Of a stretch of 56,049 nt of DNA, positions 1 to 52,143 are shown in pieces (positions within the stretch are counted from its first letter, which is position 1; the number at the start of each line of letters is the position of its first letter). The notes beneath the pieces were generated by a model. That model was not told the DNA's origin. It did not search any database and saw only the letters and a list, made by a program, of their open reading frames with translations. This DNA is from a virus, in IMG/VR virus record IMGVR_UViG_3300031520_000003, positions 1 through 56,049 of that record. The stretch is one strand, 5' to 3'. Both the position numbers and the translations under genes were made by a program.

Positions 1-127
1 TCCAGAGCAGGGCTGATTGCCTCGTTGCCTCAGTGCGTCTTCTTCTGGCTGTTGCCTCAGCCCATTTTCTTGCGCATGCATTCCACACTCCCCTCCCAAC
101 AGCAGTGCGAGGAAAGCGCACTCTGCG
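1..127. repeat. Terminal direct repeat, copy 1 (circular-closure overlap)
   Basis: Bases 1-127 are identical base for base to 55923-56049. Confidence 0.95.
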
Positions 128-3496: not shown

Positions 3497-4759
3497 CTAG
3501 ACCGCGACCCGCTCATCACGTGTCACTGCTCCGGCATACTGCGCGTACGCTTCCAACGCCCACGCAATCTGCTGCTTGAGTGTCACGTCCACCGGCTGCA
3601 TCCATTCTTCGGGCGTGTACAGATCGCAATACACGTCTCGCTCGATGTACAGCCCGAGCACAGAGCGACCGCTGGGCAACTGTCCCCACGAGGTCTGCAT
3701 CCCCGGATACTGCGCCGTAATCTGCTGCTCTAACGCCTCAGCTTCAGTCTGCGTCATTCCCCATGTGTCCCCTTGCCCGTTTCCTTGTGTAACTTCCACT
3801 GGTTGAGCTATTGTTACACAAGACTGCGGAATGTCTTGCGTGATCGGGTGCGCGTGCGGCACCTCTGGCTCCGGATAGAGGCGTGTTGCGTGAGCTGGCG
3901 GTGTCCAGTCACGTGACTTGAACGCGATCTCCTCGTAGAACTTGTTGATCTTGACCAACGTCAACAGTTCATGATGATCTTTCCAGAATTTCTCAACATG
4001 CTTGAAGTACAGGATGGCGACTTCAGCTTGTCGTAAGGCGTCCTCCTCGCCTATGAGCACGGCGAGAGCTTCAAGACGCTGAGAAAGGGCCTGGAATGCT
4101 TCCTCCATATCGGCCTCCTTTCGGCACGGGGCTAAATGGGTTGTGTCTAAAAGGGACAGTTTCTCTCTCAAAGAAGAAAAAGAGTCAAGAGAGACAGGAG
4201 GGAGGGAAGGCAAGGGAAGGCTTGCGGGTACAGTTGCCTCTGGCTTCGGAGCTTCCCTATATTCCTCCTCCATATTAGGGGATATATTAGAATCCATATT
4301 CCCCCTATATTGTGTCGATTTTGAGCTTGCGATTGGAACAGCCGTGTTTCCTGTGGGAACGGTTGTGTTTCTATGAGAAACTGAGCTATTCCTGGCAGGA
4401 ACAGATGAGTCTTTCTGTGTCTCATTCCTGCTCTGCTGTTCCTCACAGGAACGGTTGCGCTTTGATGGATTGTCTTGCCAGACCTTCTCGATCTGCAACG
4501 TGAGACGTATTCCAACGTCGGTCTCTTCTCGGCTGATCCAGCCGAATTGGAGCCATTTTTGGATGGCACGCGAAATCGTGGCCTTTGCCATCTTGATGGT
4601 TCGGCACAATGCGCCCAGCGACCCCTCAAAGTAGCCTTGCTGTCCAAAATGACGCAGAAATTGAAGAAATCCAAGTTTTTCGATATCCGAGAGAGCACAA
4701 TCGAACACCACGTTGGGTACCTGGGTAAAACAGTCTCGTTTGAGAGCGATCTGTGTCAT
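3497..4759 (-). CDS. replication initiator-like winged-HTH protein (lambda O N-terminal type)
   Basis: The N-terminus FTQVPNVVFDCALSDIEKLGFLQFLRHFG....LGALCRTIKMAKATISRAIQKWLQFGWI matches the Phage_rep_O pattern (FT.vPN ... HTH). Confidence 0.6.
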   Translation of the reverse strand: MTQIALKRDCFTQVPNVVFDCALSDIEKLGFLQFLRHFGQQGYFEGSLGALCRTIKMAKATISRAIQKWLQFGWISREETDVGIRLTLQIEKVWQDNPSKRNRSCEEQQSRNETQKDSSVPARNSSVSHRNTTVPTGNTAVPIASSKSTQYRGNMDSNISPNMEEEYREAPKPEATVPASLPLPSLPPVSLDSFSSLREKLSLLDTTHLAPCRKEADMEEAFQALSQRLEALAVLIGEEDALRQAEVAILYFKHVEKFWKDHHELLTLVKINKFYEEIAFKSRDWTPPAHATRLYPEPEVPHAHPITQDIPQSCVTIAQPVEVTQGNGQGDTWGMTQTEAEALEQQITAQYPGMQTSWGQLPSGRSVLGLYIERDVYCDLYTPEEWMQPVDVTLKQQIAWALEAYAQYAGAVTRDERVAV

Positions 4760-4833
4760 TCCTGCGCCTCACTTCCATCTGTCTGCATCAAAAATACGCT
4801 TCTCTTCCCTCGTACCTTGTGTCTTGTCTGTGG

Positions 4834-6099
4834 TTGAGAAGCCTCAACCTGTGGTATACTGGCTCTATAGGCTGTGCCCCTTGAGTTGCGAAGAACCCCT
4901 TTGATGGCCTGGTGGAAACAGCCTTGTTTTTGTTTCATGATCTTCCCCTTCATGATTTTCCCGAGGGACCTCGGGAACAGGTCATCGTCGAACGGACCGG
5001 TCACTATGGACGTGCTCTTGAGCAATTTCTGCACGAGCGAGGCATCACGATCTACGAGGTCCACCCACAAGAGCACACGTCGCGCAACAAAAGCGATAAG
5101 CGCGATGCACAGATGTTGGCAGCCCTCTTGTACAATCAGGTGGAGCGCGGTGTCTTGGTCACGGATGAAAACCAGATCGCCCGCAGGCTGGTGCCACCTC
5201 ATGAGACGGTGCAACTGCTGCAAGGTCTGGTCCAGCACCGATTGGAACTGGTTCGCGAGAGCACACAGCGCAAAAATAAGCTGACCGCCATCGCCGATGA
5301 ACTGTTTCCTGAATTGACCCAGGTCAATTCGGACCCCAACAGCCAGAGCGCGTTGGCACTCAGGAAACAGTATCCGTCCCCACAAGATATCGAGAAAGCA
5401 GCTCTCGACGCCTTGTGTGAGACGCGCCTGCATACGCGTCCAAGTCGCGCACATCTCGCAGAATTGCAAGACCTGGCACGCACGACGATTGGCACGAAAC
5501 ACCCATCCAGACGCACAAGCTTGCTTCTGGAGCAAAAGCAACTCATTGCCGAACTGCACTTGCTTCAAGAGCACCTGGACGTGTTGGAAGAGGAGATTGA
5601 AACCGCTCTGCACGAGAGTCGAGACGGACGAATCTTGCTCTCGTTTCCCACCATCGGGACGACGCAAGCCTCGATCATTTTGGCGCACATGGGCAACGTC
5701 GCCAACTATCCGCGTGCCTCGAAACTGCGTGGATATATGGGTTGGTCGCCTCACCAGCGACAGACAGGCACATCCACAGACAGCATGACCTTGACCAAGG
5801 GAGGCAATCCTCTGCTGAAGCAGACCATGTTCCTGGTCTCGCTCACCGCTATTCGGACGGATACGCAGTGGCGCACCCTCTACCACCGCCTGGTGCCGCG
5901 CATCTGCCAGTTCGACGAGCGAACCGGACGCTATAAAGGTCGCATGAAGGTGATCGGACGCATCGCGGGTCCGATGATCGGCCTGATCTATGTCCTGCTG
6001 AGAAAGGATTATGACCTGCTGGCTGCGCTTGCCGAGGGAGAGGACCCGCCGGAGCCGGAGGTGTACGAGCGGAGCAAACACCGCGTTCGTGGAAGCTAA
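4834..6099 (+). mobile_element. IS110-family element, degenerate copy (exact ends not determined)
   Basis: The transposase reading frame is open from TTG 4834 but is interrupted by TGA 4882-4884. It is inserted against the direction of the surrounding minus-strand operon. Confidence 0.6.
4912..6099 (+). CDS. IS110-family (DEDD) transposase, N-terminally truncated, probably defective
   Basis: VERTGHYG, KSDKRDAQMLA and the C-terminal SFPTIGTTQASIILAHMGNV...GGNPLLKQTMF motifs are present. The first catalytic G-I-D-V-x-K block is missing. Confidence 0.8.
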   Translation: METALFLFHDLPLHDFPEGPREQVIVERTGHYGRALEQFLHERGITIYEVHPQEHTSRNKSDKRDAQMLAALLYNQVERGVLVTDENQIARRLVPPHETVQLLQGLVQHRLELVRESTQRKNKLTAIADELFPELTQVNSDPNSQSALALRKQYPSPQDIEKAALDALCETRLHTRPSRAHLAELQDLARTTIGTKHPSRRTSLLLEQKQLIAELHLLQEHLDVLEEEIETALHESRDGRILLSFPTIGTTQASIILAHMGNVANYPRASKLRGYMGWSPHQRQTGTSTDSMTLTKGGNPLLKQTMFLVSLTAIRTDTQWRTLYHRLVPRICQFDERTGRYKGRMKVIGRIAGPMIGLIYVLLRKDYDLLAALAEGEDPPEPEVYERSKHRVRGS

Positions 6100-6392
6100 C
6101 ATGCTGGCTCCAAGCAAGCCAGCGTGTGGGACATGAGTATCACAGATGTCGAAAACCCTCCTTGTCCGTCTTCATCCTGAGTATCTTGTCTTTTTGTTCT
6201 GCTTGATGGTTGAATTGCATCAAGTTCCTCTTGTGTCCAGAGAGACGTATTTTTCAAGATGCGTCCTGTGGTAGCGCGTCCTCGGCGGCGAAGATTGCGA
6301 AGGCTGGCAACACCATAAATGATTCCTCTTTTCTCTTTGAGATACTCCACCGCTTCAGCGGGAGTATACACATAATTTGGGTCCTTTTGCAT
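6096..6392 (-). CDS. small HTH DNA-binding protein (excisionase/MerR-like)
   Basis: YTPAEAVEYLKEKRGIIYGVASLRNLRRRGR...WTQEELD. The C-terminal tail runs into the IS110 end. Confidence 0.55.
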   Translation of the reverse strand: MQKDPNYVYTPAEAVEYLKEKRGIIYGVASLRNLRRRGRATTGRILKNTSLWTQEELDAIQPSSRTKRQDTQDEDGQGGFSTSVILMSHTLACLEPAC

Positions 6393-7464: not shown

Positions 7465-7493
7465 TTGACAGTGACACGATGTCGTGATATACT
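7465..7493 (+). promoter_or_regulatory. sigma70-like promoter, rightward early operon (TTGACA-N17-TATACT)
   Basis: TTGACA 7465-7470 and TATACT 7488-7493, flanked by the inverted repeat CTTGACAGTG / CAGTGTCAAG (7464-7473 / 7513-7522). Confidence 0.65.
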
Positions 7494-12727: not shown

Positions 12728-13101
12728 TGCGGTCCTACACTCCCTGCGACTTACCACCTCTTCCACGCCTGCACTGTCCGTTCGAGTGCCGCAAGACGGT
12801 GCAGCGCTATGGCAGCAAGGCTGATCTGTATATCGTCAAAACGCCATGTACGGGCAAGCCTCTGGCAAACGGCTGGTGTGCCTGGCATCAGTCCAGCCAG
12901 GAGCTCCTGGACTGGGGCGCGCAGATCGGCTATCCACGCCTGCAAGTGAACAGTGCGCTCTGGATCACGGGCGGGATCGCCAACTGGGAGGATTACGCTG
13001 TGTGCTATCCTGCAAGTCGGCGAGAGCAGATCACATGGGCAATTGAGAACTATAGCACTTCAGAGAGGAAGCAAGCAAGATATGGACACCGTAACACCTG
13101 A
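12724..13101 (+). CDS. hypothetical Cys-rich protein
   Basis: 125-aa ORF, coupled to the upstream gene. Confidence 0.55.
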   Translation: MMRSYTPCDLPPLPRLHCPFECRKTVQRYGSKADLYIVKTPCTGKPLANGWCAWHQSSQELLDWGAQIGYPRLQVNSALWITGGIANWEDYAVCYPASRREQITWAIENYSTSERKQARYGHRNT

Positions 13102-13489
13102 GATGCACGAAGAGATCAAGGCAATGGTTTTTTTGCTCGACACAGACCTGTCCATCATCGGGAGGAGCGTTGCGCTCCAAAGCTTGATGAGAGAACGCGT
13201 CACGCGCCTGGTCGAGACCTGTATCGCCTTTGCGACAGAGCAGGTGGACCGTGAGCTTGCTGAGGCAGCCGCCAGGGTTGCAGCAGTGGAGCAAGAGCGA
13301 GAAACTGCGCTTGCACAACTCGATCTCTTAGATGATTCGTTAGAACAGGTAGTCACGCTGGTGCGCGATTACCAGCGATTTGTAGAATCCGGACACTATG
13401 CACGCATGAAGGTCTATGCGCCAAAGGAAGCGTACGAACTGAACAAACGTGCTTTTGAACTTCTTGGAGAGGAGAATACACAGGTATGA
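13082..13489 (+). CDS. hypothetical coiled-coil protein
   Basis: ATG 13082 follows GAGAGGAAGC. The ORF is open from 12953. Confidence 0.55.
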   Translation: MDTVTPEMHEEIKAMVFLLDTDLSIIGRSVALQSLMRERVTRLVETCIAFATEQVDRELAEAAARVAAVEQERETALAQLDLLDDSLEQVVTLVRDYQRFVESGHYARMKVYAPKEAYELNKRAFELLGEENTQV

Positions 13490-13671
13490 GTACTGTCCTG
13501 AAGAGTTCTTGCCCAACCTGCAAGAACATGCGAAAGATCGTTGTCTCTCCTCTGATTGTTGATCCCCATAACCTTGTGCCTCTTCTCGAAAAAGAGGACT
13601 GCTCTGAATGTCGATTGAAGAGCATACTGAAGAGTTTGAAGGTCGTGTGTGTGACAAGAGAGGAGCACTGA
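13486..13671 (+). CDS. small Zn-ribbon-like protein
   Basis: CPTC ... CSEC pairs; overlaps both neighbours. Confidence 0.5.
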   Translation: MSTVLKSSCPTCKNMRKIVVSPLIVDPHNLVPLLEKEDCSECRLKSILKSLKVVCVTREEH

Positions 13672-14018
13672 TGAACCAGATCACCGCGCCCATTCGTTTA
13701 CAGGCTCTACGACGAGAGACCGAGCCTATTCCTCGGTCTGCTCGCAACGTGCAAGGCAAGCGTCAACAGGCGCTCATCACGCACAATCCGTATGAGCCGA
13801 CGCTGGTGCTCGTCAAATCGCTCATCAGCCGCTACAGCGAGAAATATGGAGCATTGCCGAGCGTGATCGACCTCTGTGATATGCGCTATTGGACCATCAA
13901 AATCATGTGCTATGACTATTATTACATCAAGCTCGCTGATGGCAGCTATGAACGAATACCCTATCAATTACAGGAGAGAGCGGTGTTTGAAGTCAGAGTG
14001 AGAGGAGTTGCACCATGA
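13671..14018 (+). CDS. hypothetical protein
   Basis: TGATG overlap with the upstream stop, with AGGAG 6 nt upstream. Confidence 0.55.
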   Translation: MNQITAPIRLQALRRETEPIPRSARNVQGKRQQALITHNPYEPTLVLVKSLISRYSEKYGALPSVIDLCDMRYWTIKIMCYDYYYIKLADGSYERIPYQLQERAVFEVRVRGVAP

Positions 14019-14236
14019 ATCCGTGGCTCATTGGACTTGCTTTCGTTGGCGTTCTCTGTCTGCTGTATGGTTGGATCGTCATGATCGTACGCAGAAATCA
14101 TGCTCAGATGATGGCTGAGGTAGAAAGGAAGAATAGGCAGTTGATCCGTGAGCAGTTTCCGGCTTCCGACTATGAAAGCATGTATGAGAACCTGCTCAGT
14201 CATGCAGAAGAGGAGGCGGCGAAACTGCGTGCATAA
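14015..14236 (+). CDS. small single-pass membrane protein
   Basis: N-terminal TM segment LIGLAFVGVLCLLYGWIVMIV. Confidence 0.6.
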   Translation: MNPWLIGLAFVGVLCLLYGWIVMIVRRNHAQMMAEVERKNRQLIREQFPASDYESMYENLLSHAEEEAAKLRA

Positions 14237-15098
14237 TCCGCTTCATTGGCTCTATCAGCAATCGGGAGGGGTACTGCGCTCTGGGTGTGTCTCCTGCTAC
14301 TTGTGCGGCGGCACCTCGACAGAGACACACGCCGTTTCCAAGACGGTAGCCGATACCTTCAATTCCCACTATCTCGCACAGTGTCCCTCATCCTCGTGGG
14401 TGTGCGATGCCTGTGCATGGTATCTCGACAATAGTGGCGTGCATCCCGATTTCCGCAAAATGAGCCTCATCGTCCAACGCGACTCGTGGCAGAATTGGCA
14501 ACGTCCTACCATGAAACACGATGTGACGCAGTGGCTTACCTTTGGCCTTGATGGTGATGCCTACTTGGTTGTTTCGCTCTCCAAAAAGAAACATATCCTG
14601 ATGCAGGCACCGCTCAATGTCTCGTCAAGTCGAGATATAGCTGTTCAAGTCGAGGAAAACGTCGCATTCTTGTCCTTGTGGCAATGGGAAGCGATGGACG
14701 GACCGTTTCTGCGCTTGCTTGCGTTAGGACATGGCAAAGGGGAGATTCTTTCAGGCAATCTCTACGGTCAAACATTACGCAAGCATGGTCAACTCATGGA
14801 AGCGTTGCGGCTCAATCAGGAACTAGAGCCGTACCGCAAGAGTCCACAGATCGAGTTATTGAGTTACGTCACGATTGTGGAAGAAAGGACACAAGACGAT
14901 GATCGAGGAACAGGAACAACAGGCATTTCAGAGAGAGCTAGAACTGAGGCAAGTGGCGTCAGTGCTGCTAGGAGCCGTGTGGAAGAAGATCGACCCCGAG
15001 TACAAGAGCAAGTACCGAGCAGAGATTTGGCGGCAATTCGAGGAGAGGCTCCAGACCTCGGCACGGATTACGCCCAACTTGACCTCTTTTCTCAGTAA
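14229..15098 (+). CDS. csf1: Csf1-like (type IV Cas8-like) large subunit, zinc-finger N-terminus
   Basis: CVSCYLCGG...CPSSSWVCDAC Cys cluster; first gene of a Csf-type cluster. GTG 14229 lies 12 nt after GGAGG (alternative start ATG 14202; ORF open from 14148). Confidence 0.45.
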   Translation: MHNPLHWLYQQSGGVLRSGCVSCYLCGGTSTETHAVSKTVADTFNSHYLAQCPSSSWVCDACAWYLDNSGVHPDFRKMSLIVQRDSWQNWQRPTMKHDVTQWLTFGLDGDAYLVVSLSKKKHILMQAPLNVSSSRDIAVQVEENVAFLSLWQWEAMDGPFLRLLALGHGKGEILSGNLYGQTLRKHGQLMEALRLNQELEPYRKSPQIELLSYVTIVEERTQDDDRGTGTTGISERARTEASGVSAARSRVEEDRPRVQEQVPSRDLAAIRGEAPDLGTDYAQLDLFSQ

Positions 15099-15291
15099 GT
15101 TCTGTACTCTGTTTCAGGTCGCTGAGATTGGGATCGATGCCGATGAACGCCTAGAGGTTGAACGCATCTTAGCAGGCGGGTACGGCAATCCAGACGACAT
15201 TTTGTACGGCTTGCGTCGGGACCCGCAAGTGTGTGTCTTGTTGTTGAGAAATCGGTTAGATGAGGAGAAAGTCAATGCAGGCTACAAGTAG
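14899..15291 (+). CDS. cas11: Cas11-like small subunit (tentative)
   Basis: About 130 aa and helix-type (EEQEQQAFQRELELRQ...), lying between the large subunit and the Cas7-like gene. Overlaps the csf1-like 3' end out of frame. Confidence 0.35.
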   Translation: MIEEQEQQAFQRELELRQVASVLLGAVWKKIDPEYKSKYRAEIWRQFEERLQTSARITPNLTSFLSKFCTLFQVAEIGIDADERLEVERILAGGYGNPDDILYGLRRDPQVCVLLLRNRLDEEKVNAGYK

Positions 15292-16219
15292 TTATCGATT
15301 TGAGGGGATCGCACGCGCTCTGAGTGCGGTCTCGCATCTGGGGGAGAGCACAGGCGGCACCACCGCCATTTTCCGACGCGAGAAAGTCTGTGCAGGTGGG
15401 CGTGTAATCGAGGTGCCTATCCTCTCAGGCAATGCCTTTCGGGGACAACTCAGAGACACGGGTATGCGTTTCATGCTGAGGGAATTAGGTGATCCTCAGC
15501 TTTCCCCTCCTGCGTTCCACTTCCTGACATCGGGAGGCGCACTCACCAAAGACAGTGGACGTGGACTTGACATCGGACAGGCGCGCCGTTTACAAGCGTT
15601 GATTCCACTGGTGGGTGTCTTTGGCGGTGCGTGTGGACGCCAAATCCTTCCAGGCAAACTGCAAGTCGGTAAGTGGTATCCCGTGTGTCAGGAGCTTGTT
15701 GATCTCTTGCCACAGAAGTATCACCAGGAGGACCTGGTGAGCATCTACGACTTGACCGATCTTCACAGCTTTACCCGTACCGATGATGCCAAATCTGAGA
15801 AATGGCAAAAGTTCTTGCCACAAGAGCAGAGAAGCCTGTTAGAGGCTCCCAAGACAAAGACAGCCAAAGATGGGACAGAAGTTGCAGACAAGCCAGGCGT
15901 GGCGCAACAAATGCGCTACTCCCAGGAGGTGCTGATCGCAGGAACGCGCTTCTCCTGTTGGCTTCAACTGCAAGATGTGACCGATCTCGAGTACGAAGCG
16001 TTTGCCTCGGCTCTGATCGAATGGAGTAAGGCTCCCTTTGTCGGGGGACAATCTCGACATGGCTGCGGCGAGGTCGAGTTGCGCTTTGACAACTGGATGA
16101 GCATATCTCCTCTCGCGCGTGATGAGAAAGGGGTCGGATTACCTCTTGGCACGGCGTATCATGACCATTTGCAGACACAGCGTGAAGCTATTCTCGATGC
16201 GCTCAAGGAGATCGCGTGA
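15275..16219 (+). CDS. csf2: Csf2-like Cas7-family RAMP protein
   Basis: VPILSGNAFRGQLRD, LTSGGAL and the C-terminal Gly loop VGGQSRHGCGEV. ATG 15275 follows GAGGAGAAAG. Confidence 0.6.
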   Translation: MQATSSYRFEGIARALSAVSHLGESTGGTTAIFRREKVCAGGRVIEVPILSGNAFRGQLRDTGMRFMLRELGDPQLSPPAFHFLTSGGALTKDSGRGLDIGQARRLQALIPLVGVFGGACGRQILPGKLQVGKWYPVCQELVDLLPQKYHQEDLVSIYDLTDLHSFTRTDDAKSEKWQKFLPQEQRSLLEAPKTKTAKDGTEVADKPGVAQQMRYSQEVLIAGTRFSCWLQLQDVTDLEYEAFASALIEWSKAPFVGGQSRHGCGEVELRFDNWMSISPLARDEKGVGLPLGTAYHDHLQTQREAILDALKEIA

Positions 16220-16980
16220 TGGATCAGCCCATGCGGATTATCGCGTACCTTGCTGGTTCCATTGCGCTCGCCCGTCCTGAAGACCTGGCCCTTGATGGAC
16301 TGCTTGCCTATCAGGTGCTCCGCAAGCATTTCGGCTCTGACTTCTACACGTTGCCAGACCCCAAAGACGTGCTGTACTTTGCCCGCCTCCCACTCGAGAT
16401 GCGTGGTGCTCCTGATGCGTCTGTAGAACGTCTGCAGACGGGCGAGGTCTGGTACCATCGTGGACAGGGCATTGCGGATGAGAGCCTGTGGTACTGGGCG
16501 TGTTCCTCGGCACAAATCGAGGTCAAGGGACGTGACACACAGTATTGGAACAAGCGTTTTGATACGCAGGCATCGCTCTCGGACCGGATTGATTTCGGGG
16601 GGCGTGTCGAGAAAATCTTGATTGAGCAAGGTCGCTACAAAGCCTATCATATGCCCCTTCCTACGCTTGTTACAGACAAGGTGACGTGGTATGCCTATGG
16701 GGATATGGAAGCAGTTGCCGATGTGCTCATTGCGATCGTGGCGATGGGCAAAAAAAGAGTGCAGGGGAACGGACATGTTTTGCGGTGGGAGATCACACCA
16801 ATGGATGAGGATTATTCGCTCTGGCATGATGATCGTCTCATGCGCCCCGTCCCAGGTCCGCTTCTGCGGGGCATACAGTGGGATATTCCGTTCAATCTTC
16901 AGCACAGTGCGTTTCGCGCTCCACAATGGCACGCAGCCAATCAAGCACTGTGCGTGGTTGGAGGCAAGAGGCATGCGTGA
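16219..16980 (+). CDS. csf3: Csf3-like Cas5-family RAMP protein
   Basis: N-terminal LALDGLLAYQV and C-terminal Gly loop GKKRVQGNGHV. TGATG coupling to csf2, with AAGGAG upstream. Confidence 0.5.
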   Translation: MDQPMRIIAYLAGSIALARPEDLALDGLLAYQVLRKHFGSDFYTLPDPKDVLYFARLPLEMRGAPDASVERLQTGEVWYHRGQGIADESLWYWACSSAQIEVKGRDTQYWNKRFDTQASLSDRIDFGGRVEKILIEQGRYKAYHMPLPTLVTDKVTWYAYGDMEAVADVLIAIVAMGKKRVQGNGHVLRWEITPMDEDYSLWHDDRLMRPVPGPLLRGIQWDIPFNLQHSAFRAPQWHAANQALCVVGGKRHA

Positions 16981-17722
16981 CATGGAACGGTTCCAACACG
17001 AATTGTACGCAACGTTCCCAGCATTTCAGCGCAAGGTGGAGCAAGCGCAAAGACTGGTTGAGGATGCTTTGCAGCAGATGAGCCGTCCGTATATCGCCAC
17101 CAGTAGCGGCAAGGACTCGTGTGTGACCTCTCACCTGGTCTGGTCTGTCAATCCTGATGTGCCTGGCGTCTACTTTGATGCCGATTGCGCGTTCCCTGAG
17201 ACGCGAGACTACTTCGAGAGGCTTTCACGCCATCGTACGATCATCACGTGGAAGACGGAGCCACTGCTGGATACCTTTGCACGGTGCGGCGGTCCTACGG
17301 CTCCTGGTATCGGCAACGCGACGATGGAGAGCACCGTGTACGCTCCTCTTCGCTCACTCTTCGCTGAGTATCATTTTGACGGCGTGTTCTTGGGACTGCG
17401 AGCACAGGAGAGCGAGGGACGGTCCAAGAGTGCGCAATTCCACGGCTCGCTGTACCGATACAAGCGAGATGGTGTGTTGCGCTGCTTGCCTGTTGCCACG
17501 TGGACGCATCAAGATATTTGGGCGTATATCGTCAGTCGCAACCTGGACTATAACCGTGTCTATGACACGATGCAGGACATGCCGATTGCAGATAGACGCG
17601 TGTCCTATTGGGCAGGTGAGACAAAGAGACGTTGGGGAAGATGGACGTTTTTGAAGAAGCACTATCCTGATCTCTGGAACCGATTTGCTGAGAGATTCCC
17701 TGAAGTGCGAGAATATGTATGA
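16973..17722 (+). CDS. cysH: PAPS reductase / CysH-like PP-loop enzyme
   Basis: PP-loop motif SSGKDS. ...FLGLRAQESEGR... is typical of the PAPS_reduct family. ATG 16973 lies 9 nt after GGAGG and overlaps the csf3 stop. Confidence 0.8.
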   Translation: MRDMERFQHELYATFPAFQRKVEQAQRLVEDALQQMSRPYIATSSGKDSCVTSHLVWSVNPDVPGVYFDADCAFPETRDYFERLSRHRTIITWKTEPLLDTFARCGGPTAPGIGNATMESTVYAPLRSLFAEYHFDGVFLGLRAQESEGRSKSAQFHGSLYRYKRDGVLRCLPVATWTHQDIWAYIVSRNLDYNRVYDTMQDMPIADRRVSYWAGETKRRWGRWTFLKKHYPDLWNRFAERFPEVREYV

Positions 17723-17759
17723 ACAAACATATCTGCAGAGCAGAAAGCGAAGGTGAAGG

Positions 17760-17888
17760 ATGAGTCCATTGTTTCAACAACTATCCGATCAGCTGTACAT
17801 CGATTTTTGGGCGTTGCAAGTGCTCGGCGCAGAGCTGCTGATCTTGGTGTTCTTAGCGATCTGTGTGTTGCTGAAAAAATTACTGTAA
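17760..17888 (+). CDS. small membrane protein (42 aa)
   Basis: GAAGGTGAAGG then ATG; C-terminal TM segment AELLILVFLAICVLL; below the ORF-track size cut-off. Confidence 0.4.
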   Translation: MSPLFQQLSDQLYIDFWALQVLGAELLILVFLAICVLLKKLL

Positions 17889-17902
17889 AGAGAAAGTGAG
17901 GG

Positions 17903-18163
17903 ATGAGTATGCACAAGGGAGAGCCAAAAAACGACCATCCATCCACTTGGGAGCAGCAGTGGCAGACGCCACCGTTACAACCTGCCAGAGAAATACCTAG
18001 GCCGAGCAGGGGTGTTGATTGGTATGGCAGTTGGGAGTGGGCTATGTTTCTTGCTCGATCTAGCTTCGAACATGGGGAATGCTCTGAGCGGTGGAATCCT
18101 GAATGGTGGTATTACAGCGCAGTAGCTAGAGCCGCACGTGCCACACGTGAGCAACGAGCATGA
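17903..18163 (+). CDS. hypothetical Trp-rich protein
   Basis: 86-aa ORF with GTGAGGG upstream. Confidence 0.55.
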   Translation: MSMHKGEPKNDHPSTWEQQWQTPPLQPAREIPRPSRGVDWYGSWEWAMFLARSSFEHGECSERWNPEWWYYSAVARAARATREQRA

Positions 18164-18336
18164 ACAAGCGTCTCCGTAAAAAACAGCAGAAGCGCGCGAG
18201 AGCCGCTATTGCCAAGAGCCTGGACACCTTTGAGCGAGACTATGCCGCCCAGGTGCATGATCGTCAAGATCAGCCAGAGGTGGCACATATCCTCCAGGTG
18301 CAGGCAATGGCAAAGAGTGAGAGAGAGCGAGGATGA
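18160..18336 (+). CDS. hypothetical basic protein (58 aa)
   Basis: ATGA overlap with the upstream stop; translated by hand (MNKRLRKKQQKRARAAIAKS...). Confidence 0.4.
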   Translation: MNKRLRKKQQKRARAAIAKSLDTFERDYAAQVHDRQDQPEVAHILQVQAMAKSERERG

Positions 18337-18392
18337 AGTGAGCGATTATGCCGAAGCTCGTTGCGGACTGCAAAGGCATATGATCCCTCGCT

Positions 18393-18668
18393 ATGGAAGA
18401 ATGGAACAAGGCTATGACTGATGCAAGAAACGTGTATCCACGCCTCTGTTGGGCATGTTTAGGTGAGATCACATGCTACGAGGATGATAACGATCTTTTG
18501 AATTATGGCGGACACCATACCACATGTACTGGGAGGATGCCTAGATTACATGACATGCTACGGTTTCAAGGTCAAACCGGACGTATGAATAGCGTGAGAG
18601 AGCGTGATACTCTTCTGCACGAGCTCGCTCTGTGGCAGAGTCAGAGAGAGCAAGAGGTGAGTGAATGA
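18393..18668 (+). CDS. hypothetical protein
   Basis: 91-aa ORF whose stop overlaps the next start. Confidence 0.5.
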   Translation: MEEWNKAMTDARNVYPRLCWACLGEITCYEDDNDLLNYGGHHTTCTGRMPRLHDMLRFQGQTGRMNSVRERDTLLHELALWQSQREQEVSE

Positions 18669-18868
18669 TGAATGACCTCCGCACAATTGGAGTGGTTCTA
18701 GCGTCCTGGTATCGCTTCTACGCCACGTACATACCGCTCCTCGTGAAAGAGGCGTGCGTATTCTACTATAGGCTCGCAACGAATAAGATAGGGCTCCCTA
18801 CGTGGTTATGGTTGCTCGTTATGGCTGGTATGGTAGTAGCGTGTGTCGCATACTTGCTCAATGGATAA
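18665..18868 (+). CDS. small membrane protein
   Basis: Two hydrophobic segments (IGVVLASWYRFYATYIPLL and LWLLVMAGMVVACVAYLL). Confidence 0.55.
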   Translation: MMNDLRTIGVVLASWYRFYATYIPLLVKEACVFYYRLATNKIGLPTWLWLLVMAGMVVACVAYLLNG

Positions 18869-18883
18869 AATTGAGGTGGACGA

Positions 18884-19270
18884 ATGAGCAGAGACAAGCA
18901 AGGGTCACTCACGTATTGTGAGTTAGGAAAGCATGAGGCACCGTCGAAATTACGCAATTATTTTGAGTGGTCGGTCTCTATGTGTGATACCTGTCAAACT
19001 GAGTATCTGCAGCGCGACAAGCCAACAATCCAAACGATACAGGTGAACAATCTGGATGATGTGCGAACGGTCCTCCTACGTATGGTAGGGTTTCTTACTG
19101 CTCAACAAATGCATGGAGACCACAATCCCTACATCGTGACACTCCTCAAAGAGCTAGAGGCAAGTGATGATCGGATTGCAGAAGCGATGACACTGTGCAG
19201 GCAACTTGAGCAGGTCACGCAAGAGCGCGATGAGTTGCGTGATCGCATTGTGTATGGAGAGACGGCATGA
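18884..19270 (+). CDS. hypothetical protein
   Basis: 128-aa ORF with GAGGTGGA upstream. Confidence 0.6.
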   Translation: MSRDKQGSLTYCELGKHEAPSKLRNYFEWSVSMCDTCQTEYLQRDKPTIQTIQVNNLDDVRTVLLRMVGFLTAQQMHGDHNPYIVTLLKELEASDDRIAEAMTLCRQLEQVTQERDELRDRIVYGETA

Positions 19271-21159: not shown

Positions 21160-22503
21160 ATGAGTAATACACATCAAACGAGCCCCTTGACAGACAGAGA
21201 GCGGTTTCTCTTGAACATTCTCATTCTCAACCTTCCCGAATGGGAGGTCACACAGATTGATGAAGATGAGGACGATTACGTGATTACAGCACGTCCGTCC
21301 TCGTCTCTCTCTATCTGCCCCTTCTGCGGATATGATACTCTCTACAAGCATGGCGACCTTGAGCAACACATCCGCGATGTGCCAAGTCATGGCAAGCGCG
21401 TGCTGATTCAGGTGACCCGTCAACGCTATCGGTGCAAACACTGCACGAAAACGAGTTTTGAGACGTTGCCTGACATTGATGAGAAACGGTTCTGCACCAA
21501 GCGGCTCATTACGTTCTTGCAACGACGATCCATGAATGATGATCGCACGTTTCTCTCCCTGGCGGAAGAAACTGGCCTCCATGAAAAAACGGTTCGTCGT
21601 ATCTTTCACGATTATGTTCTTGAGTTAGAACGTTCAACGCATTTTGCAACACCCCGAATCATGGGCATGGATGAACTCCATGTTATCCACCAGCCACGAG
21701 CGATTATTACCAATATTGAGAGAAACACGGTAGTTGAGTTCCTGGCAGACCGCAAAAAACAAACGATCATCCGGTATCTTTCGAGTGTGCCAGATCGTGA
21801 ACACATAGCTCTCGTGTGCATCGACATGTGGCAGCCGTACCGTGAGGCCGTGAGAGAAGTCTTGCCGCACGCAATCATTGTGATTGATAAGTTCCATGCC
21901 GTAAAATTAGCGAATCAAGCGATGGAAGTTGTCCGAAAAGAGGTTCGCGCTAGCCTCACGGAAAAACAACGTCGAACGCTCATACATGATCGCTTCTTGT
22001 TGCTCAAGCGAGAAAGCGAGTTAAAGGAAAAAGAACGATTGACGCTGGAAGCATGGACGGGCAGCTTCCCAACGCTCAAAAAAGCGTATGACCTCAAGGA
22101 AGCGTTCTATGAGATATGGGATGCTCCTGATAAAGATGAGGCACATCAACGCTACTTTGCATGGCAGGAGCAAATTACACCAGAGGTTACTAGTGCCTTT
22201 ACACCTATTGCTTTAACCGTCGAAGAATGGGGCGATGAAATCTTTGCCTACTTCGATCATCGCATTACTAACGCCTACACGGAATCACTCAATGGTTTAG
22301 CAAGGGTCGCGAATCGATTGGGTAGGGGGTACTCTTTTCAGGTATTACGGGCAAGATTACTCTACGGAATAGGCCAGCATCGGCGACGAAAAGCAAAAGT
22401 GTCGAATGTGGAATCGGACTCTGAGGGAGTGGCCCTGTCCACACTCGAACAATCTGTTCTGGATTCGGGTTTAGAGACCAAAAACACGGTAGAAGCCGAA
22501 TAA
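21160..22503 (+). CDS. ISL3-family transposase
   Basis: N-terminal zinc-finger pattern CPFCG...YRCKHC, then the DDE_Tnp_ISL3-type core (IDMWQPY, VIDKFH, TNAYTESLNG). Confidence 0.9.
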   Translation: MSNTHQTSPLTDRERFLLNILILNLPEWEVTQIDEDEDDYVITARPSSSLSICPFCGYDTLYKHGDLEQHIRDVPSHGKRVLIQVTRQRYRCKHCTKTSFETLPDIDEKRFCTKRLITFLQRRSMNDDRTFLSLAEETGLHEKTVRRIFHDYVLELERSTHFATPRIMGMDELHVIHQPRAIITNIERNTVVEFLADRKKQTIIRYLSSVPDREHIALVCIDMWQPYREAVREVLPHAIIVIDKFHAVKLANQAMEVVRKEVRASLTEKQRRTLIHDRFLLLKRESELKEKERLTLEAWTGSFPTLKKAYDLKEAFYEIWDAPDKDEAHQRYFAWQEQITPEVTSAFTPIALTVEEWGDEIFAYFDHRITNAYTESLNGLARVANRLGRGYSFQVLRARLLYGIGQHRRRKAKVSNVESDSEGVALSTLEQSVLDSGLETKNTVEAE

Positions 22504-30061: not shown

Positions 30062-33000
30062 CTATAATTGCCGCTGAAAGAGTTTCGTGAAATCGCCCAG
30101 GTCCGGACCCGACACGGCTTGAATCGTGAACCAGGGCACAGGGACGCCACCTGGTCCCGTCGTAAAGACCGTTTTCACACTGCGAATAAGCATCTGCACA
30201 TCCGTCAGATTATGCTCAGGCACGAATACGCTGAAGAGTTGCCCAGGGGCAAGTCCCCCACGCAGCGTTGTCGCAGTGAGCATCTGTCCAATCACGCCGT
30301 ATTGCTGGACTCTCGCTTGAGCCAGTTGGTCGCCTGCCGCCTTGGTGAGGCCCGTGCCATCTTCAACATTCTCCACAATGCCTGAGCCGCCTCGCAGTTG
30401 TGCTCTGGCCTGCTGTCCTGGCACGTCGTCGTACTGCGAATAGGTGAGGTACTGGCCTGTTCCTGTGAAGGTGATCGTTTGGGTGCTGTCATAGATTGGC
30501 TTGGACGGGTCTGCTGTGACAATAGGACTGCCAATCGTGTAATAGAAGTCTTTTCCGGTATCGATACCGGAGATGCCTACCAATGCAGGAGGCCCGTTGT
30601 TGACCGTGATGGTTGGCGCGGAAGCGAGAGCATTGCCCAGCGTCCAGGAAATTGAGACGCTATCCCCTTGATGCTGCTCGTTGATCGCAATGGTGGCGAG
30701 TACATTGGTGATGTATTGCCGATTGCGGTATAAATCACCCTCAACGCGCACAGTGAGGCCCGCATCTAAGAAATCTCCTCCATTGGTCGAACCGATCCAC
30801 GGCGCTGGAACCGAGGTACGCCCTTGCAGATTGAACCGCATGTTTTTGTCGATGTACCACCAGCCATTCGGGAATTTCTTCGCCAGGTCGGAAAAGTTGG
30901 CGTCCAGTGACTTGAATCCGTACTGTGTGCTCGGAATGATCGCGCCATTGCCGATAGCAGGCGAGTGTGCCGACAACGTGAGATCGAGGACTTGCGGCGT
31001 GAAGGCTGGATTGGTACTGCTGAGTCGTAAGCGCGTCAGGACCTGTCTTGCAGTCACATCGTCGCCTTGCGGCTGCATCCTGAGTTGATAGAAACGCGCG
31101 GTGCCGCCTCCGGTGCGCAGGCCACACGTGCCTCCCGCAAGCGGCGTTGGATCGGTGTAGGTCGCGACAGCCAGACCATCAAAGAAGGCCGTGATGACGT
31201 TGCCTAGCATCGTTACACGCACGCGGTGATAGGTATTCACTGGCACACGTTGGAAGTTGATCGCCGATGACGCCACCAGGGACCGTACTCCTGCCTCGAC
31301 TTCGTAGATCGCCAGAGTGTTCGGGTTGCCTGCATTGGAAGACGCATCCTGGACGACCACCTCGTAGAAGGTGTTGGTATCGGTGTAGCGCCAGACCAGG
31401 CCACCGGAATCGCTTGCGTCCATATCCGTGAAGAGATCGATATCCGTCGCCGTGAGCGTGCTATACAGACAGAGCGCGGAGGCTCCGCCCGTTGCGACCA
31501 TGCGTCTGTTGGCGCTGTCAAAGGTATAGGTGGCCGCGGTTCCCCCAGCGCGGTAGGTGCTCGTATAATTGGCTGCCGTATTGGTCGCAAAGCTGTCGAT
31601 CGTCGGGTCTGGCTGGATACCCAGGCCCGGAATGCTGCCGCCATTTTGCGCGGTCACATCCTGCCACGTGGCCCCATTGTCAATCGAGGTATCCACGCCC
31701 AATGCGGTTCCTGCTGGCAGATTCCTATTCCAGGCCACAAGGCTATTGCCCAGCCGTCCGACGTTTTGCAGCGACAGTGGCGTTCCTATGCGCGTGCCTG
31801 TGGCGTTGAACGCGCTAGTCACCAGCCAAGTGAGCCCTTGGAGGATGACGGTCACATTGGCGTTGTTGGAGGTCAGCGTGGCGCGTATTTGCAGATTGAC
31901 GCCTGAGAGGTTGAGCCCTGGTGTCAACTGCGGGATAGCCCCACCATTCGCACAGGCTTGCCAGGTGCCCCCGATGGAGGTCTCAACGAGGAGGCTGGCA
32001 TTATTGGGGACCGTCGCATTCCACTGAATCACTGATGAGCCAACGGACCCAACCGAGGTGAGGTTCGTGTAGGGCGAAACACGGTTTCCACTCAGTTGAT
32101 AGATGATGCCGAACTCCTTGAAATACGCATTATGGCGCGTGTTCGTGAGACTGTTGAAGTGGCGATATCCCACGCCGCCACTGCTATACGTCGTGTCGGT
32201 GGCGTTGATGTAGAGCACATCGTTGACATAGACCTTGTGATTGGAGCCTGTTGCGACCACTTTGAGTCGATACCAGACCCCAGATGCGAGACTGACGGAA
32301 AAGACTGCAACTCCGAAGAGATTGCCAACGGTGCCACTACTGTTGCTGCCCCGATCCAGGTGGATTCCGTTCGCATCAATGTAGGCTGCGTAGCCATAGG
32401 TATTGTTCGTGTTGCCCCAGTTCGACGTGCGATAGACGATGCCATAATTGCCCGAAGTGTCTGATGAGGAATTGCCGAATTGCACGTCCAGTTCAATCGT
32501 GCCATCCGACCAGGTTCCAACGAAATCGAGACGTGCTCGCGCATCCAGTCCACCGTCGCATCTGAGATAGTAGCTCGACAGATTGATGCCATCAGCCGGA
32601 TTACTGCCAAAGAGCGTCCTGCTGCCAACGGAGCCATCACCGTAGCTCTTAAAGGCGCCAGTCAACTCCAATGCGCCAGAACTGCCAGACGCGATGCTGG
32701 TCACGTTGCTGAGTGTGCCTGCATTCCAGTCTGCCTGCGATGTGGTGACGTTGGCGACATCCGTTTTGGTGGCAGCGTAACTGGGCGAGATCGTCACGTT
32801 CATGTCGTAGAGAATGGGTGAGATCGTCGGGTCCGATCCGCCGATAGCCAGGGTGTGGCGAAATTGGATGCTGAGACCAGTCATGTTCTGACCTGGCACA
32901 AGCCCCGGAATAGGACCGTGATTGGTGCATGGCTGCCAGGTTGCTCCACCATCAAGCGTGGTCTCAATCGTCACCTGTGGCGTTTTCGCATTTTGCGTGG

Positions 33001-50946: not shown

Positions 50947-51318
50947 TTACCCAAAAAAGCCGCAGAAGACGGTGCCTTGTGGCAACGCAGGCAGTGGCAC
51001 GATATACACAAAGCGTTGTGTCGCCTGATTGACGATCTGTGTCACGGTAGCGCGTTGCTGCACCAGTGTTCGCATGATTGAGCGAGACAGAGGCTCCAGG
51101 TCCTCTTCCGCGATGAACAGATATTTGGGGTCGGCGTCATGCTGGGCGTACAGTGTGGCGAACACCTCTTGTACGGACTCACACGTGACCTCTGGCAGCG
51201 TCACCATCGCGCTGTGGTAATCGCCAATGGTGTGCTGATCGGCGAGTTTCTGTGCAAGCATCTTGCGCGTCACCATCGGATATTCTGCTACATCTGTCTT
51301 TCGGTTGATGATCGTCAT
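50947..51318 (-). CDS. hypothetical protein
   Basis: ATG 51318 follows GGAGGAAGG-N6. The ORF stays open to GTG 51426 through the duplicated repeat. Confidence 0.55.
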   Translation of the reverse strand: MTIINRKTDVAEYPMVTRKMLAQKLADQHTIGDYHSAMVTLPEVTCESVQEVFATLYAQHDADPKYLFIAEEDLEPLSRSIMRTLVQQRATVTQIVNQATQRFVYIVPLPALPQGTVFCGFFG

Positions 51319-51407
51319 ATCAATCCTTCCTCCTGTCCAATCGGCTGTCCTGGTCTCCGTGATCGAGACCGTCTTTCGGTTGATGATCGTCATATCAATC
51401 CTTCCTC
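51296..51407 (-). CRISPR. Candidate mini-array: 37-bp repeat, 38-bp spacer, 37-bp repeat
   Basis: GTCTTTCGGTTGATGATCGTCATATCAATCCTTCCTC occurs perfectly at 51296-51332 and 51371-51407. The 38-bp insert matches tail-fibre bases 33652-33689 at 32/38 positions. Confidence 0.4.
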
Positions 51408-51472
51408 GGCCCGTGAATGCCGCCACGTCTTTCCCTGCCTTCCCTTCCTTCGTATCGAAAGGTGCCTGAAGA

Positions 51473-51517
51473 AAGACAAAAACGGCATTCGACTCCTACG
51501 AAGGAATCGAACGCCGT
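51473..51517 (-). terminator. Rho-independent terminator, minus-strand specific
   Basis: A 16-bp stem with a 4-nt loop (51482-51517). The two non-Watson-Crick positions are G-U on the minus-strand RNA but A-C on the plus-strand RNA. A U-run follows on the minus strand. Confidence 0.7.
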
Positions 51518-52108: not shown

Positions 52109-52114
52109 GGACAG

Positions 52115-52143
52115 AGTATAGCACATTGACATCTCGGTGTCAA
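52115..52143 (-). promoter_or_regulatory. Consensus sigma70 promoter, leftward (TTGACA-N17-TGcTATACT)
   Basis: Minus strand: TTGACA (52138-52143), 17-nt spacer, TATACT (52115-52120) preceded by TGC. Confidence 0.7.

What the first reader, a model, noticed from the sequence alone, without database searches (positions are those of the whole stretch)
14229..17722. Array-less type IV-B-like Csf effector module plus a CysH-like PP-loop enzyme inside a phage early operon
Seen: five consecutive ORFs with overlapping starts and stops.
1. 14229..15098 has an N-terminal Cys cluster (CVSCYLCGG...CPSSSWVCDAC), as in Csf1 large subunits.
2. 14899..15291 is a ~130-aa helical, Glu/Arg/Leu-rich protein in the Cas11 position.
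3. 15275..16219 has Cas7/RAMP hallmarks: VPILSGNAFRGQLRD, LTSGGAL and the Gly loop VGGQSRHGCGEV.
4. 16219..16980 is a second RAMP with LALDGLLAYQV and the Gly loop GKKRVQGNGHV (Cas5/Csf3-like).
5. 16973..17722 carries the PP-loop SSGKDS of the PAPS-reductase/CysH family.

Established knowledge: type IV-B CRISPR-Cas loci are described as csf1-cas11-csf2(cas7)-csf3(cas5) without cas6, dinG, adaptation genes or an array. They are characteristically linked to a cysH-like gene, are mainly found on mobile elements, and have no resolved biological function.

Inference: this is a divergent IV-B-like module carried by a virion-forming phage and co-transcribed with early genes. That argues for a takeover or inter-MGE role rather than host immunity. 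The same genome carries an orphan repeat-spacer-repeat unit (51296-51407), which would be unexpected for IV-B.
Basis: partly seen in the sequence, partly recalled or inferred. Interest (0 to 1): 0.85.

Follow-up and report, generated by a model that had tools for sequence, protein, structure and literature searches.

The report
Phage-borne type IV-B CRISPR-Cas cassette
A complete 56-kb tailed-phage genome carries an intact, array-less type IV-B CRISPR-Cas effector operon with its signature CysH-like enzyme; this is a genuine but already described kind of system whose function is still unknown.

Summary
The five overlapping ORFs exist as described. They are csf1, cas11, csf2 (cas7), csf3 (cas5) and a cysH-like PP-loop gene, which is the canonical type IV-B layout.

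- **Identity.** PADLOC profiles match at 7e-19, 1e-13, 4e-73 and 6e-45; Pfam PAPS_reduct matches at 1.5e-21. The closest solved Csf2 is the Mycobacterium IV-B complex 7JHY (6e-28). The AlphaFold model of Csf3 matches type IV-A Csf3 subunits. The CysH-like model matches PAPS reductases but has no C-terminal catalytic cysteine.
- **Carrier.** The window is a circularly assembled siphovirus-like genome of 55,922 bp. No cas6, cas1/2, helicase or integrase was detected.
- **Repeat pair.** The "orphan repeat-spacer-repeat" at 51296-51407 is not CRISPR. It is a duplicated ribosome-binding site, start codon and seven codons of a conserved 123-aa gene.
- **Conservation.** The five genes are the only conserved set across about 98 related loci, many next to terminase genes, and are under strong purifying selection.
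- **Isolated relative.** Skermania phage SPI1 carries the same cassette, unannotated.

IV-B loci on prophages, phages and an archaeal virus are already published, so this is a new member of a known kind. Its value is as a lead for the unresolved IV-B function.

The parts
14229..15098 (+). csf1: type IV large subunit (Cas8-like) with an N-terminal CxxC...CxxC zinc-finger cluster. The last ~66 codons (14899-15098) overlap cas11 in another frame.
   Evidence: PADLOC Csf1_0_IV 7.2e-19 over residues 20-214. TIGR03114 cas8u_csf1 1.2e-6, below its cut-off. C23, C26, C59 and C62 are kept in 70-90% of 90 family members. The Reticulibacter homolog is 222 aa and has no overlapping tail.
14899..15291 (+). 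cas11: type IV small subunit, 130 aa, helical.
   Evidence: PADLOC Cas11_1_IV 1.1e-13 and Cas11_0_IV 1.4e-6. Present in 53 of 53 non-redundant related loci that have enough upstream sequence.
15275..16219 (+). csf2: Cas7 backbone subunit, 314 aa.
   Evidence: PADLOC Csf2_0_IV 3.8e-73. TIGR03115 4.2e-19. PDB 7jhy Csf2 6.4e-28. 348 homologs, many named Csf2 by JGI. More than 50 positions are at least 90% conserved, including SGNxxRGxLRD, SGG, FGG, TRxDD, QQMxY and GGxxxxGxG. dN/dS about 0.06.
16219..16980 (+). csf3: Cas5 subunit, 253 aa.
   Evidence: PADLOC Csf3_0_IV 6e-45. Homologs carry Pfam PF27782 Csf3. The AlphaFold2 model has pLDDT 87.7. Its Foldseek top hits are Csf3 of type IV-A complexes: 8rc3_F 3e-12, 7xg1_B and 8rc2_F, TM 0.54-0.70.
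16973..17722 (+). cysH-like (CasCysH) PP-loop ATP-pyrophosphatase-fold enzyme, 249 aa. It has the PP-loop S44-S-G-K-D-S49 and no C-terminal catalytic cysteine.
   Evidence: Pfam PAPS_reduct 1.5e-21. PDB PAPS reductases about 2e-9. The AlphaFold2 model has pLDDT 93.7. Its Foldseek top hits are CysH 6vpu, 1sur and 2o8v, followed by APS reductase, FAD synthase, TtuA and TilS. S44, G46, D48 and S49 are at least 90% conserved. The last cysteine is C171 (sequence). Linked to the csf genes in 40 of 42 loci.
7465..7493 (+). Context only: promoter-like site (TTGACA-17-TATACT with TG) at the head of the + strand non-structural gene train that contains the cassette.
   Evidence: Consensus scan. No strong terminator-like site lies between it and the cassette. 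This is a pattern match, not proof of transcription.

Best explanation
**What it is.** Window 14229-17722 is an intact, array-less subtype IV-B CRISPR-Cas effector operon (csf1-cas11-csf2-csf3) with its signature cysH-like accessory gene. It is joined by overlapping start and stop codons to the non-structural gene train (Rad52-like recombinase, C5 DNA methylase) of a complete 55.9-kb siphovirus-like phage. The probable host is a Ktedonobacteria-type Chloroflexota.

**Working model.** The gene identities are shown here; the rest is inferred by homology to the Mycobacterium Csf complex.
- Csf2 polymerises with Cas11 around an RNA of about 55-60 nt. Csf3 (Cas5) and the zinc-finger Csf1 cap the filament.
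- The phage supplies no crRNA of its own, so the complex loads on non-CRISPR or scavenged RNA.
- The CysH-like enzyme keeps the PP-loop but lacks the PAPS-reductase cysteine. It therefore most likely performs ATP-dependent adenylation or modification of a substrate held or found by the RNP, not sulfate reduction.
- The benefit goes to the phage during infection, as counter-defence or competition with other mobile elements. It is not adaptive immunity.

**Confidence.** The identity as a IV-B cassette is about 0.95. The mechanistic and biological part is about 0.35-0.4. The figure given is for the whole statement.
For: **Identity.** Profile matches, the PDB match to 7JHY, and structure models with Foldseek hits.

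**Integrity and selection.**
- All five ORFs are open and translationally coupled.
- dN/dS is 0.04-0.12 against the closest relative.
- Catalytic and structural motifs are conserved across 76-99 family members.

**Self-contained module.**
- The five genes are the only recurrent gene set in about 98 non-redundant loci: csf3 42/42, cysH 40/42, csf1 52/53, cas11 53/53.
- In some loci cysH sits between csf2 and csf3.

**Phage carrier.**
- Structural genes are present and the assembly is circular.
- No integrase, Cas6, Cas1/2 or helicase Pfam family is found in 73 other proteins.
- Relatives lie next to TerL in at least 8 independent loci.
- Skermania phage SPI1 has the same five genes.

**No array.**; the repeat pair is explained as a gene-start duplication.

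**Mechanistic priors.** The IV-B complex binds heterogeneous RNA of about 55-60 nt (PMC7937560). CasCysH lacks the catalytic cysteine and has a PP-motif (PMC8175902).
Against: - No experiment exists for this locus, and the library searched holds no functional study of any IV-B system.
- "Early expression" is inferred from gene order, overlaps and one promoter-like match.
- No candidate guide RNA was found.
- Two IS elements, one of them polymorphic between samples, suggest long residence inside cells. That would also fit a lysogen-protecting or plasmid-like role.
- The TIGRFAM Csf models match only below their curated cut-offs.
- The host assignment rests only on cassette homologs in Reticulibacter and Ktedonobacterales.
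Confidence: 0.6

Rival explanations
1. RNA-guided reading. The Csf complex scavenges mature crRNAs from the host's own CRISPR systems, or from a co-resident element. It uses them to silence or mark competing phages or plasmids, or to protect a carrier cell. In that case it behaves as a mobile, array-less interference module.
For: - The Csf3 model has the Cas5 fold; Cas5 subunits bind crRNA 5' handles in other class 1 systems.
- The idea has been proposed in the literature (PMC8175902, PMC7038947).
- Some related loci have CRISPR arrays within 10 kb: L002, L075 and L090.
- IS insertions hint at long intracellular residence.
Against: - The Mycobacterium complex did not load co-expressed crRNAs (PMC7937560).
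- IV-B anti-correlates with other CRISPR systems (PMC7038947).
- In L002 the nearby array belongs to an adjacent Cas12f/TnpB-like gene, not to the Csf genes.
- This reading gives no role to CysH.
- The cassette is coupled to lytic-arm genes rather than set apart as a moron with its own promoter.
Confidence: 0.2
2. The 37-nt repeat - 38-nt spacer - 37-nt repeat at 51296-51407 is a solitary CRISPR unit that supplies a crRNA to the Csf complex, as proposed for the archaeal Fuxivirus.
For: - The two copies are identical, with CRISPR-like 37/38/37 geometry.
- The virus-borne IV-B system of Fuxivirus has a two-repeat mini-array (PMC10848311).
Against: - On the minus strand the repeat reads GAGGAAGGATTGAT-ATG plus 7 codons, and the two copies are in frame.
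- The downstream copy is the true start of a 123-aa gene. Homologs of that gene keep this N-terminus (M-I/T-I/V-N-R-K..AEYP).
- The repeat has no fold signal (z = -1.0).
- The repeat core was not found in IMG/VR apart from one chance hit, and part of the spacer gave no match there.
- No cas6 is present.
- The unit lies 19-34 kb from the cassette.
Confidence: 0.03
3. The cysH-like gene acts on its own as a phage DNA- or nucleotide-modification or auxiliary metabolic gene (DndC-, BrxP- or phage PAPS-reductase-like). It merely sits next to the csf genes.
For: - There are weak matches to BrxP and DndC, and to PHROG phage PAPS-reductase families.
- Two cysH subfamilies are swapped between otherwise near-identical csf cores.
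- The same operon has a C5 DNA methylase.
Against: - cysH is linked in 40 of 42 loci.
- It overlaps csf3 by 8 nt here and is inserted between csf2 and csf3 in other loci.
- It lacks the cysteine needed for PAPS reduction or DndC-type chemistry (sequence; PMC8175902).
Confidence: 0.07
4. The cassette is an inert or decaying passenger with no current function.
For: - The Reticulibacter chromosomal copy has a frameshifted cysH.
- Type IV-B has no demonstrated activity.
Against: - All five ORFs are intact and coupled.
- dN/dS is 0.04-0.12.
- Motifs are conserved.
- The GC content of the cassette (0.54) matches that of the genome (0.53).
Confidence: 0.03

Closest known systems
Type IV-B Csf complex of Mycobacterium sp. 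JS623 (PDB 7JHY; PMC7937560)
   Same: It has the same gene set (csf1, cas11, csf2, csf3) and no array or cas6. Its Csf2 is the best solved relative (6.4e-28).
   Different: It sits on an actinobacterial megaplasmid rather than in a phage genome. Csf2 of actinobacterial plasmids is only 31-35% identical to the window protein. The window belongs to a separate, mainly metagenomic clade (44-85% identity).
Skermania phage SPI1 (KR011061) Orf40-44
   Same: It is an isolated siphovirus of 55.7 kb with the same five-gene order and overlapping junctions: csf1, cas11, csf2, csf3 (PADLOC) and a cysH-like gene with SGGKDS.
   Different: Its Csf2 is 35.5% identical and its CysH 28%. The host is an actinobacterium. 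All five genes are annotated as hypothetical. It was the only hit among 50,697 GenBank phage records.
Fuxivirus type IV-B (Bathyarchaeia virus; PMC10848311)
   Same: A virus-borne csf1-cas11-csf2-csf3 module with a cysH-like gene.
   Different: It is an archaeal virus with an adjacent two-repeat mini-array and a Cas4. Here there is no genuine array and no Cas4.
Type IV-A effector complexes (PDB 8RC3, 7XG1, 8RC2)
   Same: The Csf3 fold matches (TM 0.54-0.70), and Csf2 is distantly related.
   Different: IV-A has DinG, Cas6/Csf5 and an array, and lacks cas11 and cysH. None of DinG, Cas6 or an array is present here.
PAPS reductase CysH (PDB 1SUR, 2O8V, 6VPU)
   Same: The Rossmann-like PP-loop fold matches (TM about 0.6-0.68) and the protein matches Pfam PF01507.
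   Different: There is no C-terminal ECGLH-type cysteine; the last cysteine is C171 of 249. The C-terminus is distinct and conserved (R209-x-S-Y-W-A-G...G222-R). Scores are far below the NCBIfam equivalog cut-offs.

Membership tests
Type IV-B CRISPR-Cas | csf2 (type IV Cas7) present | tested here: met
   PADLOC 3.8e-73; 7jhy 6.4e-28.
Type IV-B CRISPR-Cas | csf3 (Cas5) present | tested here: met
   PADLOC 6e-45. The structure model matches Csf3 chains at 3e-12.
Type IV-B CRISPR-Cas | csf1 (small Cas8-like large subunit), not a Cas10-like HD protein (IV-C) or a Csf1-Csf3 fusion (IV-E) | tested here: met
   PADLOC Csf1_0_IV 7e-19. It is a separate 289-aa ORF with a conserved Cys cluster.
Type IV-B CRISPR-Cas | cas11-like small subunit present | tested here: met
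   PADLOC Cas11_1_IV 1.1e-13.
Type IV-B CRISPR-Cas | Adjacent cysH-like gene of the Cas-associated kind (PP-loop, no catalytic Cys) | tested here: met
   The gene overlaps csf3 by 8 nt. PF01507 1.5e-21. The SxGxDS motif is conserved. There is no cysteine after residue 171. Placement within the published CasCysH clade by phylogeny was not done.
Type IV-B CRISPR-Cas | No DinG (IV-A) or RecD (IV-D) helicase, no Cas6/Csf5, no Cas1/2/4 | tested here: met
   Among 73 other window proteins, no such Pfam family appears at E<=1e-5. The 25 PADLOC families shown, of 46 matched, are all methyltransferases.
Type IV-B CRISPR-Cas | No associated CRISPR array | tested here: met
   No spaced multi-copy repeat family outside coding repeats. 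The 37-nt pair is a gene-start duplication.
Type IV-B CRISPR-Cas | Forms an RNA-containing Csf2/Cas11 filament | not testable with these tools
   Inferred from homology to 7JHY only.
PAPS reductase (CysH sensu stricto) | C-terminal catalytic cysteine (ECGLH motif) and a score above the equivalog cut-off | tested here: not met
   No C-terminal cysteine. NF002537 scores 57 bits against a cut-off of 154, and TIGR02057 scores 50.5 against 254.
CRISPR mini-array / solitary repeat unit | Non-coding repeat flanking a spacer; the repeat is shared with a host or related array, or is processed | tested here: not met
   The repeat consists of a Shine-Dalgarno sequence, the ATG and the conserved N-terminal codons of a real gene. 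It was not found elsewhere in IMG/VR. Host genomes could not be scanned for it.

The most novel reading that the evidence does not exclude
The window represents a large, mostly phage-borne branch of type IV-B that is distinct from the actinobacterial plasmid branch. In this branch the Csf filament and an exchangeable PP-loop enzyme work as an infection-phase RNA-scaffolded machine. In some relatives a small P-loop kinase or a SpoU-type RNA methylase lies between csf3 and cysH. The machine would chemically modify or sequester RNA (crRNA, tRNA or transcripts). That would make it a new class of phage counter-defence or takeover device, not an immune system.
Probability: 0.2. Interest if true: 0.8.

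Novelty: new member of a known kind. Interest (0 to 1): 0.45.

Why it matters
Type IV-B is the one CRISPR-Cas subtype for which the library searched holds no demonstrated function. Here a complete virion-forming phage keeps the cassette under strong purifying selection. The cassette is translationally coupled to recombination and methylase genes, with no array, nuclease or integrase. This argues that the system serves the mobile element during infection.

The survey also gives practical leads.
- Skermania phage SPI1, an isolated phage with a culturable host, carries the same unannotated cassette and could be used for genetics.
- The cysH-like gene is exchangeable between csf cores.
- Optional kinase and RNA-methylase inserts point towards nucleotide or RNA chemistry.

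Tried and rejected
- **DNA-level search of 13000-19000 against GenBank phages:** no match.
- **Single-protein Csf2 scan of genome contigs:** nothing. The alignment-based rescan worked.
- **Sequence search of Csf1, Cas11 and Csf3 against PDB:** no meaningful hits. This is why Csf3 was modelled.
- **Repeat pair as CRISPR:**
  - the 19-nt core hit IMG/VR once, by chance, inside a terminase gene;
  - a 21-nt piece of the spacer gave no hit;
  - spacers from the arrays in L002, L075 and L090 and the window "spacer" match none of the held loci;
  - the repeat shows no fold signal.
- **Link between the L002 array and the Csf genes:** rejected. The array is flanked by a Cas12f/TnpB-like ORF, and the L002 repeat was found only in its own contig.
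- **Conserved neighbours beyond the five genes:** none.
- **Rfam on the whole window:** nothing.
- **Pfam RAMPs and the TIGRFAM Csf models:** they match only below their cut-offs, so standard annotation would leave these genes as hypothetical.
- **dS is saturated** for all but the closest relative, so the dN/dS values are rough.
- **Paper on SPI1:** none held in the library.

Full report
**Observation**

The five + strand ORFs are at the stated coordinates, and public gene callers call the same genes on the same contig. The junctions are those of a translationally coupled operon:
- the upstream phage ORF and csf1 overlap by 8 nt, and GAGGAGG lies 11 nt before the GTG at 14229;
- csf1 and cas11 overlap by 200 nt;
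- cas11 and csf2 overlap by 17 nt, with GAGGAG 6 nt before the ATG;
- csf2 and csf3 overlap by 1 nt (TGATG);
- csf3 and cysH overlap by 8 nt.

**Identity of the proteins**

- PADLOC/CRISPRCasTyper-derived profiles give Csf1_0_IV 7.2e-19, Cas11_1_IV 1.1e-13, Csf2_0_IV 3.8e-73 and Csf3_0_IV 6e-45.
- The older TIGRFAM Csf1/2/3 models match at 1e-6, 4e-19 and 2e-11. These scores are far below their cut-offs. Pfam RAMPs is only marginal. Routine annotation would therefore miss these genes.
- The fifth protein matches Pfam PAPS_reduct at 1.5e-21.
- Against solved structures, Csf2's best relative is the Mycobacterium type IV-B Csf2 of 7JHY (6.4e-28). Type IV-A Csf2 chains match much more weakly.
- Csf3 had no usable sequence hit in PDB. 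Its AlphaFold2 model (pLDDT 87.7) matches Csf3 subunits of type IV-A complexes: 8rc3_F 3e-12, 7xg1_B and 8rc2_F, TM 0.54-0.70. Cas5 of type I-A and Csm4 follow.
- The CysH-like model (pLDDT 93.7) matches PAPS reductases best (6vpu, 1sur, 2o8v). APS reductases, the FAD-synthase PAPS domain, TtuA and TilS follow.
- The CysH-like protein keeps the PP-loop (S44-x-G-K-D-S49, at least 90% conserved in 76 relatives). It has no cysteine after residue 171, so it lacks the ECGLH nucleophile of true PAPS reductases. This is exactly the property described for Cas-associated CysH (PMC8175902).

**The carrier**

- The window encodes TerS, TerL, portal, major head protein and tape measure on the minus strand at 26.8-50.5 kb.
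- The + strand non-structural train from about 7.5 kb holds a Rad52-like recombinase, DUF7694 and a C5 DNA methylase.
- The window has an exact 127-nt terminal overlap, and the ENA record is a rotation of it. It is therefore a circularly closed genome of 55,922 bp.
- Scanning 73 other proteins gave no integrase, Cas1/2/4, Cas6, DinG/RecD or nuclease family at E<=1e-5. The PADLOC families listed were all methyltransferases.
- A strong promoter-like site at 7465-7493 heads the gene train, and no strong terminator precedes the cassette. "Early and co-transcribed" is thus plausible but inferred.
- The GC content of the cassette (0.54) equals that of the genome (0.53).
- The closest cellular homologs are in Reticulibacter mediterranei and Ktedonobacterales MAGs. 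The suggested Ktedonobacteria host is tentative.

**Array-less?**

No spaced multi-copy repeat family exists apart from coding repeats in a tail gene. The 37-nt pair at 51296-51407 is real, but several results show it is not a CRISPR unit:
- On the minus strand it reads as a Shine-Dalgarno sequence, ATG and seven codons, and the two copies are in frame.
- The downstream copy is the start of a 123-aa gene that public callers also call.
- That gene has homologs of the same length that keep the N-terminus M-(T)I-(I/V)-N-R-K-..-AEYP.
- The repeat has no fold signal and was not found elsewhere.

It is a duplicated gene start.

**Comparative survey**

- Csf2 has 348 database relatives. Using viral, metagenome and genome scans I assembled about 98 non-redundant loci.
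- With in-session profile searches, the five genes are the only recurrent set. Where enough flank is held, csf3 is present in 42/42 loci, cysH in 40/42, csf1 in 52/53 and cas11 in 53/53. A subset has the order csf2-cysH-csf3.
- Against the closest relative, dN/dS is 0.04-0.12 for all five genes, although dS is saturated.
- A terminase large subunit lies within the held +/-10 kb in at least eight independent loci. These include MAG contigs assigned to Bacteroidota and Acidobacteriota and a 517-kb contig, which is presumably a prophage. Other long loci look phage-like.
- Only one of 50,697 GenBank phage records has a Csf2 relative: Skermania phage SPI1. Its Orf40-44 are csf1, cas11, csf2, csf3 and a cysH-like gene, all annotated as hypothetical. 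BFVD holds a single Csf3-like viral protein.
- The classical actinobacterial plasmid IV-B Csf2 proteins are only 31-35% identical to the window protein.
- CysH identity to the window is bimodal (50-69% or 29-36%) and independent of Csf2 identity. Two cysH subfamilies have therefore been exchanged between csf cores.
- In some relatives a small AAA_33 P-loop kinase or a SpoU-type methylase is inserted between csf3 and cysH.

**Mechanism**

What is shown: an intact, selected five-gene IV-B cassette in a virion-forming phage, with a PP-loop enzyme that cannot be a PAPS reductase and with no crRNA source.

What is inferred from 7JHY (PMC7937560) and from PP-loop enzymology (PMC8175902):
- Csf2 and Cas11 form a filament on RNA of about 55-60 nt, capped by Csf3 and Csf1.
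- CysH performs ATP-dependent adenylation or modification of a substrate presented by the complex.
- The benefit goes to the phage, as counter-defence or inter-element competition.

Rivals:
- crRNA scavenging for guided silencing is plausible. It gives no role to CysH and is disfavoured by the Mycobacterium loading data.
- The repeat pair acting as a guide source is essentially refuted.
- cysH acting alone is disfavoured by its linkage to the csf genes.
- A decaying passenger is disfavoured by the selection evidence.

**Comparison and novelty**

The locus passes every sequence-testable criterion for subtype IV-B. IV-B loci on plasmids and predicted prophages (10.1101/270033; PMC7038947), type IV systems in some lytic phages, and IV-B in an archaeal virus (PMC10848311) are already published. 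No functional study of IV-B was found in the library.

This is therefore a new member of a known kind. It is of moderate interest, mainly because it adds phage-context constraints and an experimentally tractable relative (SPI1) for a long-open question.

Noticed in passing
window 51296-51407 (minus strand): The perfect 37-nt direct repeat pair is a duplication of the Shine-Dalgarno sequence, ATG and first 7 codons of a conserved 123-aa gene (50947-51318). The copies are in frame, so an N-terminally extended isoform (+25 aa) is possible.
   Followed up: yes
window 51470-52143 (minus strand): A strong promoter-like site (TTGACA-17-TATACT with TG, 52143-52115) and a 17-bp-stem intrinsic terminator (51518-51481) bracket about 630 nt with no convincing ORF. 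The stretch folds with z = -6.8 and has no Rfam family. It is a candidate phage non-coding RNA.
   Followed up: partly
window 1-127 and 55923-56049: An exact 127-nt terminal overlap, and an ENA record that is a rotation of the window. This indicates a circular assembly with a unit length of 55,922 bp.
   Followed up: yes
window 4756-6117 (-) and 21160-22503 (+): Two IS transposases lie inside the phage genome, one of the IS110 family and one of the ISL3 family. The ISL3 copy sits in a low-GC stretch and is absent from an otherwise identical contig from another sample (L005). It is therefore a recent insertion.
   Followed up: partly
L002 8700-10750 (IMGVR_UViG_3300027706_000010): A related phage contig (Csf2 79% identical) carries a 491-aa Cas12f/TnpB-like ORF (PADLOC Cas12u4 1.6e-69). 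Directly after it comes an 8-repeat CRISPR array (37-nt repeats, 35-38-nt spacers, one spacer duplicated). The pair lies 1.5 kb downstream of the IV-B cassette and 1 kb upstream of TerL.
   Followed up: partly
L075 921-1180; L090 11449-11677: Two further loci have 4-repeat CRISPR arrays within 10 kb of a IV-B cassette. The effector they belong to was not determined.
   Followed up: no
related loci, e.g. L024 vs L025, L064: CysH-like identity to the window is bimodal (50-69% or 29-36%) regardless of Csf2 identity. Two cysH subfamilies have been exchanged between csf cores.
   Followed up: partly
L038 11702-12178; L031 9851-10357; L129 12038-12517; L048 2784-3239: Optional genes are inserted between csf3 and cysH in relatives. 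Three loci have a small AAA_33 P-loop kinase and two have a SpoU-type methylase; the second SpoU case is on a JGI contig for which no DNA was held.
   Followed up: partly
window 14899-15098: The csf1 reading frame runs 200 nt into cas11 in another frame, adding a low-complexity tail of about 66 aa beyond the Csf1 profile. The Reticulibacter Csf1 stops before cas11.
   Followed up: partly
L003 (Reticulibacter mediterranei BNJK01000003.1, 349-370 kb): A chromosomal copy of the cassette has a frameshifted or truncated cysH. Divergently transcribed DndC-like (PAPS_reduct + DUF3440), ParB_N and acetyltransferase genes lie beside it.
   Followed up: no
window 34198-34748 (minus-strand 1760-aa ORF 30062-35344): Degenerate coding repeats of 66-69 nt in the giant tail-associated protein.
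   Followed up: no
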